IMG/VR virus record: IMGVR_UViG_2671180422_000003 | Location: 1 to 13,716 of that record | Direction: 5' to 3' (one strand) | Length of the DNA stretch: 13,716 bases | From: a virus | Taxonomy: Duplodnaviria; Heunggongvirae; Uroviricota; Caudoviricetes | Part shown: positions 1 through 3,000 of the stretch, in pieces | Layout of the letters: each line of letters starts with the position of its first letter | How positions within the stretch are numbered: position 1 is the stretch's first letter | Program-made: the position numbers

Positions 1-3000
1 TTTCGTGTTCATCACACCTGAAGCGACTTCACTGAGAACTGCGCCGATTTTGGTTTCAAATACGCCGCCGTCCAGCTCCCCGATAAATGCCTGCACATCA
101 GTACTGCGTTCGCTAGCCATTTTGCTGCTCCTCATCATATCGACCCTGCAAGGTCGGTTGGTTTCTCCACAAAACAGAGAAGAACACCTGCGGTGGCAGC
201 CGCCCGGATGGATTGGGTTATGAGCCCGTCGTCCGGTGATGCTCTTCTCTGTTTTGTAAAAAGAGCGGTACCAGCCGGAAGCAAGTGTACAAACTGGTAC
301 CGCCAAAGCAGTGGCTGTTGTGGTGACCGGTGCTGATCTCCGGCTTGCGGTTATTTCAGACTCTCACGGGCGTTTAATTGCCCCGCCGAACAGCTCTTTT
401 CCGCATTAGCTGCAATGTCTTTCGCGCATCAGCCTGCGCATTCACCACAACGCTGAGAGCACTTAGCCAGTTACGGCACCACACTTTGTCGCGGCTCCAT
501 AAATGCCCTCATCGTTGCACCCTGGTCTCTTCCCAGGCGTCAAACCGGATCGCCACGCTGGTTAGGCGTCTTATCAGCATCATCATTGACTTGCACATTC
601 CGGCTACCTGGTTTGTTTGCCCGAGCAAGGAGTGGATTGTCCCCTTTAACGTCCCCAGACCGCTAACGACGCATGTGCCATACGCCGTGTTACAACCAAA
701 TTTTGTTTAATCTTGCCTGTGACATGTTTCTTTTAGATACATTATGTATCTCAAGGGTACATTGTCAAGTATAAAAAAACCTGCCGAAGCAGGTTATAAA
801 TATTGATTAGGCCTTTATTTTGTATCTTCTTGGTTTTCCTGAGAAAATTACTGTGCCAATTATAGAGCAATTACCGTTGATCTTAATGTAAGGTTCAGGC
901 CAGTTTGGGTTTAATGCTTTGAGGTAACGCTGTGTTCCATCTTCTATCAACCGCTTAAAGGTGGTTTCGCCTGTATCGTGCATCAATGCAATAACGTCGT
1001 CACCGTGGCAGGCAGGGACTTCAGGATCTACAAAAATCATGTCTCCCGGGCGGTACTCATCAATCATTGAATCACCAATCACCCGCAAGATATAAGTCAT
1101 TTCGCCACAGGGTACAGGGCAGGGATAAGTTTCTGCTGTGCTCAAATCAACCTCAGAATAGCCAACTTCTTTCCATGCTCCGGCCTGTACCCATGATATG
1201 ACAGGGACTAACGTTATTTGTTTGTTAGTAATTGAAACATCAGGTTTTTTTGTGATGTTTGTTGTCTGGTGTTCTTGATCAAGCCATCCGACAGGCAGGT
1301 CGAAACATTTTTCGATGTGCCGCGCCATGCTGTCACCGATATTTTTAGTAGCACCATCTCCCATAAACCTGCTGGTCTGGGTTGGCTCGCGATCAATCAT
1401 GGTGGCAAAGGAAGAATTCCCGCCAACACCATCTCTCAGTTTTCTGGCGTTAGACCGCCGGATGTCATGGACTGTTTTCATAACGAAATTAAAACCTTTG
1501 TACCGATAGGGTACAAGTATCTTGAAGGTTCATCTCAATCATGTAATATGTATATCGGAGGTACATATTGTATGAAAGCGTATTGGGACTCTTTAACCAA
1601 AGAACAGCAGGGCGAGTTGGCCGGAAAAGTTGGCTCAACACCAGGCTACTTACGGCTGGTTTTCAATGGTTATAAAAAAGCCAGTTTTGTGCTGGCTAAA
1701 AAACTTGAGCAATGCACGTCAGGTGCAATTACGAAATCTGACTTAAGACCGGATATCTATCCGAAAGATTAACAGAACACCTTCAATTTTTAACCACAGA
1801 ACGATGAGGCTAACCGTGGGTAAGCATCACTGGAAAGTAGAAAAACAGCCTGAGTGGTACGTGAAAGCTGTCAGAAAAACTATCGCGGCGTTGCCGGGAG
1901 GTTACGCTGAAGCTGCTGAGTGGCTGGATGTAACAGAGAACGCTTTATTCAACCGCCTTCGTGCAGATGGCGATCAGATTTTCCCGCTGGGATGGGCAAT
2001 GATTTTACAGCGCGCGGCTGGCACTCACTACATTGCGGATGCTGTCGCACAGTCTGCTGGTGGGGTGTTTGTATCGCTTCCTGAACTTGAGGAAGTAGAG
2101 AACGCCGATATAAACCAGCGCCTGCTGGAAGTCATCGAACAGATCGGGAGTTACTCAAAGCAGATTCGTTCGGCAATCGAAGATGGGGTAGTGGAGCCAC
2201 ACGAGCAGACAGCAATTAATGATGAGTTGTATCTGTCAATTTCGAAGCTCCAGGAGCATGCAGCACTGGTCTACAAAATCTTTTGCGCTCCAGAAAAGAG
2301 TGACGCCCGCGAGTGTGCAGCTCCGGGCGTCGTGGCGTTTTGTGTCTGTGGAGAAACTAACGCATGAACAGTTTAACGGCAAATAACCGTTTGTCGCAAC
2401 AGCTGGTGGTCAGCGTCGCTGAACACCTGTTGTTACGGCATGAATGCAGATTACCAAATCACCTGGCTGTAAGTAACCACAGAGAACTTTACCTGACTGT
2501 GGGGGGCGAGTTGTGCAGGAACTTAACCGCTGGTTTCGTGACGGAAGAGGGCTTTATGTCCATGTTATTCGTTGGGAGCCAGAAACACAGCGCGTTATCT
2601 ATCTTCGCAAAGACTACCCGCATGAGTGCTTTAGTCCTTTGTGGAAATTCAGGCGTGATTTTGTTGAGTGTGAAGGACCACCAGCACATTGATTCTGCCA
2701 TTCCGGGACGTTACACTGTTCAGGCACCTTATAAAGCGGGTGCCGGGATTGGCGTCCTGGAATTGATCAAGGCGATATATGACGCGCCAGCGTCTTTTTT
2801 ATCGTCCGCATTTGCTCACATCAAAGTTATGGTGGGCTGGGCGGGGGCATCGAAAGATGCGCCGGTTTCCTTGATCACCGGTTACGCCAACCCCGTTCAG
2901 TTCACCACCAGCGAAATTGGCGTTTCCGGTGGTGGAAGTATTTCACCGATCAAGGAGGCTGCCATCATGGCTACTGTCCCAGCCCTCTCTCGTCTGAATG

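What the first reader, a model, noticed from the sequence alone, without database searches (positions are those of the whole stretch)
121..806. About 690 bp ORF-free, highly structured region left of the repressor gene
No convincing ORF exists on either strand between the partial leftward gene and cI, yet the region carries a strong leftward sigma-70-like promoter overlapped by palindromes, a 15-bp perfect inverted repeat pair (169..183 and 243..257), and a 10-bp perfect inverted repeat followed by a U-tract on the minus strand next to a boxA-like CGCTCTTTTT. This fits an operator-controlled leftward transcript with a nut-like or terminator leader, or a structured non-coding RNA, in the place where lambda encodes N. 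It could also be the decayed remnant of a lost gene.
Basis: seen in the sequence. Interest (0 to 1): 0.6.

Follow-up and report, generated by a model that had tools for sequence, protein, structure and literature searches.

The report
Array of tRNA-like RNAs behind PL
The "empty" 690 bp left of the prophage repressor gene is not a dead gene or a lambda-style nut site. It is the repressor-controlled start of the leftward transcript, built from conserved folded RNA modules that other phages keep among their tRNA genes, one of which copies the anticodon arm of the initiator tRNA exactly.

Summary
The region is the leader of the leftward early operon of a cryptic SfV/e14-like prophage. It runs from PL (768->741, with operator repeats shared with OR) to the yfdP start at 120.

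It is a mosaic of non-coding modules, all on the minus strand:
- D1 (~700-517)
- D2 (510-455)
- D3 (451-317)
- an intrinsic terminator (303-258)
- TL (257-169)

The modules recombine freely among enterobacterial phages. They sit inside or beside tRNA gene arrays, always on the tRNA strand. Some piece of the region occurs in 2838 of 5426 complete E. coli genomes.

TL is a three-way junction supported by compensatory changes. Its invariant core contains GGGCUCAUAACCC, the anticodon stem-loop of E. coli tRNA-fMet. D3 has an acceptor/T-arm-like 12-bp stack, a loop-loop pairing and a hypervariable centre; about 40% of its relatives end in N(N)CCA.

No Rfam family, tRNA or tmRNA call, nut or put similarity, or conserved ORF was found. 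The "boxA-like" motif is simply the end of the terminator. Function is inferred, not shown: probably excised tRNA-mimic RNAs. I found no published description.

The parts
771..795 (-). Intrinsic terminator of the cI (ymfK-like) gene: AACCUGC-UUCG-GCAGGUU followed by U7
   Evidence: -10.3 kcal/mol. The cI ORF is 807-1481(-), Peptidase_S24.
741..768 (-). PL promoter: -35 TTGACA (768-763), 16-nt spacer, -10 CATAAT (746-741). The inferred start is near 734.
   Evidence: 11 of 12 matches. The transcription start is inferred, not mapped.
724..762 (.). OL operators: two inverted ~19-bp units. The unit at 743-762 is repeated three times at OR (1497-1566).
517..700 (-). Module D1: a conserved multi-branched non-coding element with a hypervariable patch. 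It includes hairpin 688-666, core 611-590 and 3' hairpin 541-517.
   Evidence: 78% identical to P7, where it starts right after the CCA end of tRNA-Ile(CAU). 82% identical to Uetakevirus phages, where a real tRNA-Arg follows. Consensus fold with 6 compensated pairs among 7 divergent copies. No conserved ORF.
455..510 (-). Module D2: an 11-bp helix GAGGGCAUUUA/UAAGUGCUCUC enclosing a small hairpin. It is the same element type as TL; in swi2 and Magnus it encloses a tRNA-like body with a GGUUCGAnUCC T-loop.
   Evidence: The TL covariance model hits the swi2 D2 at 29.8 bits.
317..451 (-). Module D3: closing helix 451-442/326-317, D-arm-like hairpin 439-424, hypervariable centre 423-345, and T-arm-like hairpin 344-326 abutting the closing helix. 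The loops GCUGA and UCAGC are complementary.
   Evidence: I5; 95% to RCS47, in a tRNA-Asn/tRNA-Thr array.
258..303 (-). Intrinsic terminator tL0: 10-bp perfect stem GCGGUACCAG/CUGGUACCGC, 19-nt loop, then UCUUUUU.
   Evidence: I4; -21.2 kcal/mol; a U-tract precedes TL in about 95% of type-A copies, with different stem sequences.
169..257 (-). Module TL, a three-way junction: P1 (257-238 with 188-169, 20 bp), P2 (236-230 with 210-204), an anticodon-arm mimic GGG-CUCAUAA-CCC (227-215), and a variable hairpin P3 (203-190).
   Evidence: 94% of cells paired, 7 compensated pairs; 111 bits on the minus strand, 42.9 on the plus strand; identity with E. coli metZ.
157..168 (-). Conserved tail GGAGAAACCAAC after TL. 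It can pair with the terminator U-tract, extending P1 to about 25 bp, and it resembles the start of D3 (GUGGUGAAUGC).
141..156 (-). Small hairpin CGACCU-UGCA-GGGUCG just upstream of the ribosome-binding site. Relatives have a hairpin of different sequence at the same place.
   Evidence: -8.5 kcal/mol.
1..133 (-). Shine-Dalgarno GAGGAG (133-128) and the start of yfdP (ATG 120-118). yfdP is the first gene of the early-left operon and runs off the window.

Best explanation
Positions 121-806 are the repressor-controlled, non-coding start of the leftward early transcript of a cryptic SfV/e14-like prophage. After PL/OL, the transcript carries a tandem array of independently mobile, tRNA-derived structured RNA modules: D1, D2, D3, an intrinsic terminator, then TL. 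TL is followed by a small hairpin, the ribosome-binding site and yfdP.

Shown:
- The modules are conserved as RNA structures on this strand.
- They shuffle as cassettes between phages.
- They occupy the positions of tRNA genes in phage tRNA arrays.

Inferred:
- When the repressor is inactivated, PL makes mainly a ~475-nt RNA (D1-D3) that ends at the terminator. Read-through RNA carries TL and the early-left genes.
- The modules are cut out by the nucleases that mature tRNA and rRNA. RNase P would act at the acceptor-like helix of D3-type elements. RNase III would act at the 20-25-bp stem of TL/D2-type elements.
- The released RNAs act as stable tRNA mimics. TL displays the initiator-tRNA anticodon arm. 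D3 displays an acceptor/T-arm minihelix with a variable cargo.

The target of the mimicry is unknown. My best guess is a host or rival factor that binds or cleaves tRNA.
For: Promoter, operators and terminators.

Mosaic structure:
- 121-305 is 97-99% identical upstream of yfdP in SfV and strain E189, which have different cassettes beyond 305.
- Some part of the region is present in 2838 of 5426 complete E. coli genomes.

Cassette behaviour (298 loci): D3 alone 62, TL alone 42, D1>TL 41, D3>TL 40, D1>tRNA-Arg 29, D1>D3>TL 26, tRNA-Met(cat)>D1 24, tRNAs>TL 12. The modules are always on the tRNA strand. Spacing to the tRNA is fixed: the TL motif lies 20 nt after the tRNA end, and D1 starts at the CCA end.

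TL:
- 94.1% of cells are paired against 41-51% in slid controls. Seven pairs carry compensatory changes, and 0 of 500 shuffles reach the observed score.
- P1/P7-type copies keep the fold with an entirely different P1 sequence.
- G.U pairs and the CM score (111 vs 42.9 bits) favour the minus strand.
- The core is identical to the E. coli tRNA-fMet anticodon stem-loop over 14 nt.
- All 10 distinct type-B copies end in (A/G)CCA.

D3:
- A 7-bp closing helix is contiguous with a 5-bp T-like stem. 95% of cells are paired against 27-54% in slid controls.
- Four pairs carry compensatory changes, two of them in the loop-loop helix.
- 14-15 of 36 distinct 3' ends read N(N)CCA (about 1 expected by chance).
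- In ZX5 and typing phage 9 a real tRNA-Arg acceptor stem sits exactly where the D3 helix sits.

No coding signal.
Against: - There is no expression, processing or binding data. Every functional step is inferred.
- D1/D2 and D3 of the window are not more stable than shuffled sequence (z = -1.42 and -0.44).
- The conserved parts of D1 and D3 vary too little for strong covariation: 4 compensated pairs in D3, 6 in D1. The shuffle control ignores relatedness.
- The D3 alignment was selected with an exact 16-nt pattern and had its centre removed.
- The window's own D3 lacks CCA (ACAGCC). The tail after TL holds CCA only two nucleotides beyond the extended helix.
- Neither ARAGORN nor the Rfam tRNA or tmRNA models recognise any module.
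- TL type A always sits between a terminator and the first gene. That fits a purely cis-acting role as well as a trans-acting one.
Confidence: 0.55

Rival explanations
1. Purely cis-acting leader. The folded modules only protect a long untranslated leader from Rho and RNases. The long TL stem is an RNase III site that sets the 5' end and translation of the first early-left gene, as the N-leader hairpin does in lambda. There is no trans-acting RNA product.
For: - TL type A lies between a U-tract terminator and the first gene in about 95% of copies, whatever that gene is (yfdP-, rdgC- or yfdR-like).
- P1 plus the U-tract/GGAGA extension gives about 25 bp.
- A second hairpin sits next to the ribosome-binding site.
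Against: - The same modules occur with no downstream gene to regulate. They are found inside tRNA arrays, in the HK620 late leader before its terminator, and as type-B TL with a 6-bp P1 and an NCCA end.
- The 22-nt core, invariant in every loop and bulge, is not needed for an RNase III stem.
Confidence: 0.22
2. Relics. The modules are decaying remains of phage tRNA gene clusters that spread by recombination at conserved flanks and have no present function.
For: - They lie next to or replace real tRNA genes.
- TL shares AGAGCAUCAC...CUCAUAA with tRNA-Met-type sequences (and direct reading).
- Tools do not call them tRNAs.
- K-12 CPS-53 has lost TL without obvious consequence.
Against: - Compensatory changes keep helices intact while sequences diverge, including a completely different P1 in P1/P7 copies.
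- A 22-nt core is invariant across Escherichia, Klebsiella, Salmonella, Erwinia, Mixta and others.
- Conserved ends flank hypervariable centres. Neutral decay does not give that pattern.
Confidence: 0.12
3. RNA-based antitermination. D1-D3 act like the HK022 put RNAs, modifying the RNA polymerase that made them so that it reads through the terminator at 303-258 and later terminators. This would replace the missing N protein.
For: - The position is right: between PL and the first terminator.
- The prophage has no N-like gene but does have terminators in the early-left leader.
Against: - There is no sequence similarity to the HK022 PL or PR leaders.
- The same modules sit in the HK620 late leader, where Q does the antitermination.
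- They also sit in tRNA arrays of lytic phages.
- SfV-type leaders lack D1 and carry a different D3 subtype.
Confidence: 0.05
4. Decayed or frameshifted protein-coding gene.
For: - Some records annotate small hypothetical proteins here: cdtI orf40, mEp460_036/037 and Ayreon 0036/0037.
- NCBI marks a 'frameshifted hypothetical protein' over the TL/terminator/D3 stretch in strain E189.
Against: - The annotations disagree in strand and frame.
- NCBI annotates nothing in the 99.7% identical strain C7.
- Copies differ by insertions of 1, 2, 3 and about 25 nt, and the frames are not kept in relatives at 78-83% identity.
- The translations are low-complexity R/S/C/H-rich strings.
Confidence: 0.02

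Closest known systems
Lambda PL leader (nutL, then the RNase III hairpin upstream of N)
   Same: The position and logic match. It is a repressor-controlled leftward promoter followed by a long structured untranslated leader, with a large helix just before the first gene.
   Different: There is no N gene, no boxB and no sequence similarity. The 'boxA' is a terminator end. The leader here is three times longer and made of mobile tRNA-like modules.
C4 (P1/P7), CI (P4) and IsrK-type phage RNAs (Rfam RF01695, RF01394)
   Same: These are small phage RNAs cut from longer early transcripts. They have an acceptor-like terminal helix and a CCA-like 3' end that make them RNase P substrates (established knowledge). 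This same window carries isrK and C4 at 2724-2912.
   Different: The covariance models do not match 121-806. No antisense target was found for TL or D3. The architecture differs.
tRNA-like domains of tmRNA and bacterial Y RNAs
   Same: D3 has the tmRNA layout in miniature: acceptor-like helix, D-like element, an inserted body in place of the anticodon arm, a T-like arm and N(N)CCA. In 12 of the 151 D3 copies counted, a tmRNA-like tag frame lies 180-420 nt upstream.
   Different: There is no G3.U70, no canonical T-loop and no tag frame in the window. ARAGORN and Rfam do not call it. The loop-loop contact is Watson-Crick.
HK022 put antiterminator RNAs
   Same: Protein-independent structured RNA located between an early promoter and the first terminator.
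   Different: No similarity. The modules also occur where antitermination makes no sense.
GOLLD and ROOL large phage RNAs
   Same: The habit is shared: phage-borne, next to or enclosing tRNAs, function unknown.
   Different: No model match. The hosts are Enterobacterales, the elements are smaller, and they are modular.
rtT RNA / tRNA-linked repeats of the E. coli tyrT operon
   Same: Non-tRNA RNAs embedded in a tRNA operon, partly derived from tRNA sequence, and released by processing.
   Different: Unrelated sequence. This comparison rests on knowledge, not on a test run here.

Membership tests
Lambda-type nut site | An N-family antiterminator gene downstream of PL | tested here: not met
   No ORF of that kind lies between PL and yfdP. 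The only antiterminator detected is Q (PF03589) at 4585-5337.
Lambda-type nut site | A conserved boxA followed by a boxB hairpin | tested here: not met
   CGCTCTTTTT is the 3' arm plus U-tract of the 303-258 hairpin. It varies among relatives as a terminator stem does. No boxB-like hairpin follows it; the next element is the 20-bp TL stem.
Intrinsic (Rho-independent) terminator | A G+C-rich stem followed directly by a U-tract on the transcribed strand | tested here: met
   10-bp perfect stem, -21.2 kcal/mol, followed by UCUUUUU. Relatives keep a stem of different sequence plus a U-tract at the same place. Termination itself was not measured.
Sigma-70 promoter with repressor operators | -35 and -10 hexamers with 16-18 nt spacing, overlapped by a repeat shared with the divergent OR region | tested here: met
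   TTGACA-16-CATAAT. The 20-bp unit occurs at 743-762 and three times at 1497-1566.
tRNA (Rfam RF00005 / ARAGORN) | A cloverleaf recognised by a covariance model or ARAGORN | tested here: not met
   ARAGORN finds no tRNA in the window. There is no RF00005 hit at E<=10 in 1-900.
tRNA-like element (mimic) | A 12-bp acceptor/T-arm-type coaxial stack with a 3' NCCA | tested here: inconclusive
   The D3 family has a 7+5 bp contiguous stack, and N(N)CCA in 14-15 of 36 variants. The window copy lacks CCA. TL type B has NCCA in 10 of 10.
tRNA-like element (mimic) | Anticodon stem-loop identical to a cellular tRNA | tested here: met
   Window 228-215 (minus strand) reads CGGGCUCAUAACCC, identical to E. 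coli metZ initiator tRNA. It is invariant across the family.
tmRNA | A tag reading frame plus an alanine-accepting tRNA-like domain (G3.U70) | tested here: not met
   The window has no tag motif. No tmRNA is called by ARAGORN or Rfam. The D3 acceptor-like helix starts U-A, G-C, U-A.
C4 / IsrK antisense RNAs | A match to RF01695 or RF01394 | tested here: not met
   Both models hit only 2724-2912, not 121-806.
HK022 put RNA | Sequence or structure similarity to putL or putR | tested here: not met
   No blastn match to the HK022 PL or PR leaders at word size 7. Function is not testable here.
RNase III processing site | About two turns (20 bp or more) of nearly perfect double helix | tested here: met
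   TL P1 is 20 bp, or 25 bp with the U-tract/GGAGA extension. Cleavage is not testable with these tools.
GOLLD / ROOL | A match to the Rfam models | tested here: not met
   No hit in the window or in nine related loci.

The most novel reading that the evidence does not exclude
TL and D3 found a new class of phage-encoded tRNA mimics in Enterobacterales. TL is an excised decoy displaying the initiator-tRNA anticodon arm. D3 is an acceptor/T-arm minihelix carrying a hypervariable cargo, and in some phages it is joined to a tmRNA-like tag-coding domain. They would be made early after induction, or constitutively from late promoters. They would neutralise tRNA-targeting host toxins or defence nucleases (for example VapC-type enzymes that cut tRNA-fMet in this very loop), or interfere with translation initiation.
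Probability: 0.2. Interest if true: 0.85.

Novelty: new variant of a known kind. Interest (0 to 1): 0.62.

Why it matters
More than half of complete E. coli genomes carry at least one piece of this region. Even so, the modules have no Rfam family, and annotators either ignore them or cover them with spurious small ORFs. If they are functional tRNA mimics, three things would follow:
- They would add an RNA layer to phage-host conflict over tRNAs, now known mainly from phage-encoded true tRNAs.
- They would explain why many temperate phages have long ORF-free early and late leaders.
- They would supply a natural scaffold (conserved tRNA-like ends with a variable centre) for RNA engineering.

The link to tmRNA-like tag-coding RNAs in HK620-, T1- and Vi1-like phages is a separate lead worth following.

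Tried and rejected
- Rfam: gathering thresholds on the whole window, E<=10 on 1-900, and gathering thresholds on nine related loci. Nothing was found in the region.
- ARAGORN on the window found no tRNA or tmRNA.
- HK022 putL/putR comparison gave no similarity.
- Antisense target for the CUCAUAA loop in the window: only the element itself and one chance-level hit.
- Thermodynamic stability of D1/D2 and D3 is not significant. I rest nothing on it.
- Conserved ORFs: the plus-strand 110-aa ORF and the minus-strand short ORFs are not preserved in ZX5, typing phage 9 or P7.
- tmRNA reading of the window: the tag motif present in HK620-type RNAs is absent here.
- K-12 as a model: CPS-53 has lost TL.
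- Literature: searches for yfdP, GOLLD/ROOL with phage tRNA, tRNA-like with lambdoid, tRNA-like anti-defence RNAs, tmRNA with HK620, SfV early-left terminators, and the literal core sequences. None gave a description of these elements. The prophage Pas sRNAs lie next to capsid/tail and lysis genes, not in the PL leader; their sequences were not compared.
- Genome-wide pattern scan: hits outside Enterobacterales lack the TL flanks and look like chance matches, most probably in coding DNA.
- Not used: protein-homology, protein structure-prediction and fold-search tools, because nothing in the region behaves as coding.
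Full report
**Setting**

The window is a cryptic lambdoid prophage of the SfV/cdtI/mEp460/e14 type.
- An S24-peptidase repressor, ymfK-like, lies at 807-1481 on the minus strand.
- A cro-like gene lies at 1572-1772 and a CII(CP76)-like gene at 1804-2367.
- An Ash-family gene overlaps isrK and C4 RNAs at 2724-2912.
- A Q antiterminator lies at 4585-5337.
- A methylase, a lysozyme, Rz and a truncated tape-measure/fibre ORF follow.
- The partial leftward gene at 1-120 is the start of yfdP.

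**Observation**

- The promoter is TTGACA-16-CATAAT at 768->741 on the minus strand, 11 of 12 matches.
- It is overlapped by inverted 19-bp units at 724-742 and 744-762.
- The unit at 743-762 recurs three times between cI and cro. These are therefore the OL operators, and the promoter is PL.
- The 15-bp perfect inverted repeat at 169-183/243-257 and the 10-bp perfect repeat at 265-274/294-303 are confirmed.
- The only ORF of 60 aa or more lying wholly inside is a TTG-started 110-aa plus-strand ORF; a 72-aa plus-strand ORF at 5-223, antisense to yfdP, only overlaps the left edge.
- NCBI annotates nothing here in a 99.7% identical genome.
- The frame of the 110-aa ORF is lost in relatives at 78-83% identity.
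- The minus strand of 118-310 is far more stable than shuffles: -84.9 kcal/mol, z = -6.6.
- The rest of the region is not more stable than shuffles: z = -0.44 and -1.42.

**The region is a mosaic**

- Positions 121-305 are 97-99% identical upstream of yfdP in SfV and in E. coli E189. Beyond 305 those records carry different DNA.
- Positions 306-710 match, piecewise, quite unrelated phages.
- Positions 701-524 match P7 at 78%. There the match starts at the CCA end of tRNA-Ile(CAU), upstream of ban.
- Positions 688-445 match the Uetakevirus phages ZX5 and typing phage 9 at 82-83%. There a real tRNA-Arg follows.
- Positions 464-316 match the P1-like phage RCS47 at 95%, downstream of tRNA-Asn and tRNA-Thr.
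- The two ends of that last piece are shared with the HK620 late leader, the T1-like phage swi2 and the Vi1-like Klebsiella phage Magnus.
- I call the pieces D1 (~700-517), D2 (510-455), D3 (451-317) and TL (257-169). The terminator lies at 303-258 (coordinates).
- Some part of 121-806 is present in 2838 of 5426 complete E. coli genomes.

**TL**

- On the minus strand the 15-bp repeat is the outer part of a 20-bp helix, P1. P1 closes a three-way junction.
- The junction holds P2 (CCGGACG/CAUCCGG), which encloses ACGGGCUCAUAACCCAAUC, and a small variable hairpin, P3.
- The pattern ACGGGCTCATWAYCCAATCCA occurs in at least 120 viral contigs.
- On 35 distinct copies, 94.1% of cells are paired against 41-51% when partners are slid. 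Seven pairs show compensatory changes (five in P1, two in P2). No shuffle out of 500 reaches the observed covariation score. That control does not correct for relatedness.
- Stronger support comes from distant copies. A covariance model built from these copies finds P7 and RCS47 elements at 38-45 bits. Their P1 has a wholly different but fully paired sequence, and their core reads ACGGG(U/G)UCAUAUCCCAAUC.
- Raoultella and Pantoea copies have different P1 and P2 sequences but the same fold.
- G.U pairs and the model score, 111 bits on the minus strand against 42.9 on the plus strand, identify the minus strand as the sense strand.
- The hairpin GGG-CUCAUAA-CCC, with the preceding C, is identical over 14 nt to the anticodon stem-loop of E. 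coli initiator tRNA metZ.

TL occurs in two settings.
- Type A, as here, follows a U-tract terminator in about 95% of copies. It precedes the first early-left gene, which may be yfdP-, rdgC- or yfdR-like.
- Type B starts 6 nt after the CCA of a tRNA (Arg, Asn or Thr) between Q and the lysis genes of Klebsiella-type phages. It has a 6-bp P1 and ends in (A/G)CCA in all 10 distinct copies.

In genomes the family is confined to Enterobacterales.

**D3**

- The pattern CGKTGTGGTGAATGCG again occurs in at least 120 viral contigs.
- Copies share a 5' end, (G)UUGUGGUG-AAU-GCGCA GGCUGA UGCGC, and a 3' end, GCCGG AGAUCAGCA CCGG(C/U)-CACCACA.
- Between the ends lies a centre of about 10 to more than 170 nt with no similarity between subtypes.
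- The 7-bp closing helix abuts the 5-bp 3' hairpin, giving a 12-bp stack like the acceptor/T-arm of a tRNA.
- The two loops are complementary (GCUGA/UCAGC).
- On 32 distinct end-pairs, with the centre replaced by a linker, 95% of cells pair against 27-54% in slid controls.
- Four pairs have compensatory changes, two of them in the loop-loop helix (GUCGA/UCGAC in L208).
- This support is modest. The ends vary little, and the set was selected with an exact pattern.
- 14-15 of 36 distinct 3' tails read N(N)CCA right after the helix (my count; about one expected by chance). The window copy reads ACAGCC.
- In ZX5 and typing phage 9, the acceptor stem of a true tRNA-Arg (GUGGCAU) lies exactly where the D3 helix (GUGGUGA) lies.
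- A second D3 subtype (GCGGCUCAGCGCACGCGG ... CCGGGAGGCACCCGG) is the usual partner of TL in SfV-type leaders.

**D1 and D2**

- Seven divergent D1 copies give a consensus multi-branch fold with six compensated pairs and a hypervariable patch.
- D2 is an 11-bp helix around a small hairpin.
- In swi2 and Magnus the equivalent helix encloses a tRNA-like body with a GGUUCGAnUCC loop.
- The TL model hits the swi2 D2 at 29.8 bits.
- TL and D2 share AAGAGCAUYA ... RGUGYUCUU. The conserved GUGGAGAAAC after TL resembles the D3 start. TL is therefore a D2-type element followed by a vestige of D3.

**Cassette behaviour**

- Among 298 loci held, the modules combine freely: D3 alone 62, TL alone 42, D1>TL 41, D3>TL 40, D1>tRNA-Arg 29, D1>D3>TL 26 (the window type), tRNA-Met(cat)>D1 24, tRNAs>TL 12.
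- D3 also occurs interleaved in arrays of up to five tRNAs.
- All modules lie on the tRNA strand, at fixed distances from the neighbouring tRNA.
- They behave as tRNA-gene equivalents.

**What it is not**

- No Rfam family matches at E<=10. No tRNA or tmRNA is called.
- The 'boxA-like' motif is the terminator's 3' arm and U-tract. It varies among relatives like a terminator stem.
- There is no N gene.
- The HK022 put leaders are unrelated.
- Copies differ by 1-, 2-, 3- and about 25-nt insertions, and no frame is conserved. It is not a decayed gene.
- The small 'hypothetical proteins' annotated here in cdtI, mEp460, Ayreon and E189 disagree in strand and frame.

**Mechanism (inference)**

1. 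When the repressor is inactivated, PL fires near 734.
2. The polymerase transcribes D1, D2 and D3 and meets the terminator at 303-258 (-21.2 kcal/mol). Most transcripts should therefore be a ~475-nt non-coding RNA.
3. Read-through transcripts carry TL, the small hairpin, the ribosome-binding site and yfdP.
4. D3-type and type-B TL elements look like RNase P substrates, by analogy with tRNA arrays, with the NCCA-ended relatives, and with the RNase P-matured C4/CI RNAs of P1, P7 and P4 (established knowledge).
5. The 20-25-bp P1 of TL and D2 looks like an RNase III substrate.
6. I therefore expect excised, stable tRNA-like RNAs.
7. The invariant initiator-type anticodon arm argues for recognition by something that reads tRNA-fMet. 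Candidates are the ribosomal P site with IF3, MetRS, or toxins such as VapC. VapC is known to cut tRNA-fMet in this loop (established knowledge, not tested here).
8. A cis-only role is the main rival: shielding the leader from Rho, and RNase III control of the first gene as in the lambda N leader.

**Prior knowledge**

- Full-text searches for the core sequences and for related topics found no description.
- E. coli K-12 lacks TL, because CPS-53 is deleted up to about 25 nt before yfdP. That may explain why the element has escaped study.
- I cannot exclude a description in literature that the library does not hold.

**Verdict**

The nut and dead-gene readings are wrong. What is there is an array of uncurated, widely spread, tRNA-derived RNA modules whose function remains to be shown.

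Noticed in passing
L132 (HK620) ~1520-1140 minus; L133 (swi2); L134 (Magnus); L152, L154, L189: A D3 copy in these loci is preceded, 180-420 nt upstream, by a tmRNA-like coding stretch, AUAAAU|GCA AAC GA... It gives 10-codon tags (ANEEMYLAVA, ANDDVVLMAA, ANDEQFLAVA, ANEEMYLAAA, ANEEVYLAVA), and in HK620 the stop codon lies in a hairpin loop. Rfam tmRNA_permuted and alpha_tmRNA hit below threshold (26.5 and 24.7 bits). ARAGORN calls no credible tmRNA (only a spurious one in swi2 built on its tRNA-Met), and the acceptor-like helices lack G3.U70. In HK620 this RNA fills the late leader between pR'/qut and the late terminator.
   Followed up: partly
L137 (RCS47) 940-1503 minus; L136 (P7) 2962-3059 minus: P1-like phages carry several TL-like elements (18-45 bits) downstream of tRNA-Asn/tRNA-Thr and D3. 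In RCS47 they lie antisense to the annotated CDS 'upl' and 'plp', which may therefore be misannotated.
   Followed up: partly
window 2724-2912 (+): isrK (64 bits) and C4 antisense RNA (82 bits) lie inside the 278-aa ORF 2364-3200 (Ash family). This is a P1 immI-like secondary immunity module next to the cI/cro region.
   Followed up: no
window 12164-12362 (+): Full-length match to Rfam IS009 (227.8 bits) inside the ORF 11821-12405.
   Followed up: no
window 3576-13716: The prophage looks defective. The Q antiterminator (4585-5337) comes soon after the immunity region, with no recognised replication genes. Lysozyme and Rz are followed directly by a 676-aa ORF that joins tape-measure, collar and fibre-repeat domains.
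   Followed up: no
window ~499-470 (-), within D2: A 9-codon ORF, AUG GAG CCG CGA CAA AGU GUG GUG CCG UAA (MEPRQSVVP), is kept as MEPRQSVAP in ZX5 and typing phage 9 (read from the alignment). It may be chance, given 82% DNA identity.
   Followed up: no
L357 (E. coli K-12 CPS-53) 2748-3104: K-12 keeps yfdP but has lost TL and everything upstream. Homology to the window begins about 25 nt before the ATG, and the intergenic DNA holds tandem GATTTTGACGGGTCA-like repeats.
   Followed up: partly
L001 (SfV) 1806-2592; L006 (E189) 2830-3990: Other prophages carry different cassettes between the D3/terminator/TL block and PL. SfV has orf33 plus an extra terminator. E189 has an opposite-strand 167-aa gene. 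The PL-proximal leader is therefore a hot spot for cassette exchange.
   Followed up: no
L134 (Klebsiella phage Magnus) 837-2251: A run of 30-60-aa 'hypothetical proteins' is annotated over the tmRNA-like/D3 RNA region. These are probably spurious.
   Followed up: no
L344 (Gammaproteobacteria MAG DTU037) ~3694-3711: An initiator-tRNA-like sequence that appears to lack the T-arm (…GCTCGTCGGGCTCATAACCCAATCCTGCTCCCGCAACCA). ARAGORN does not call it.
   Followed up: no
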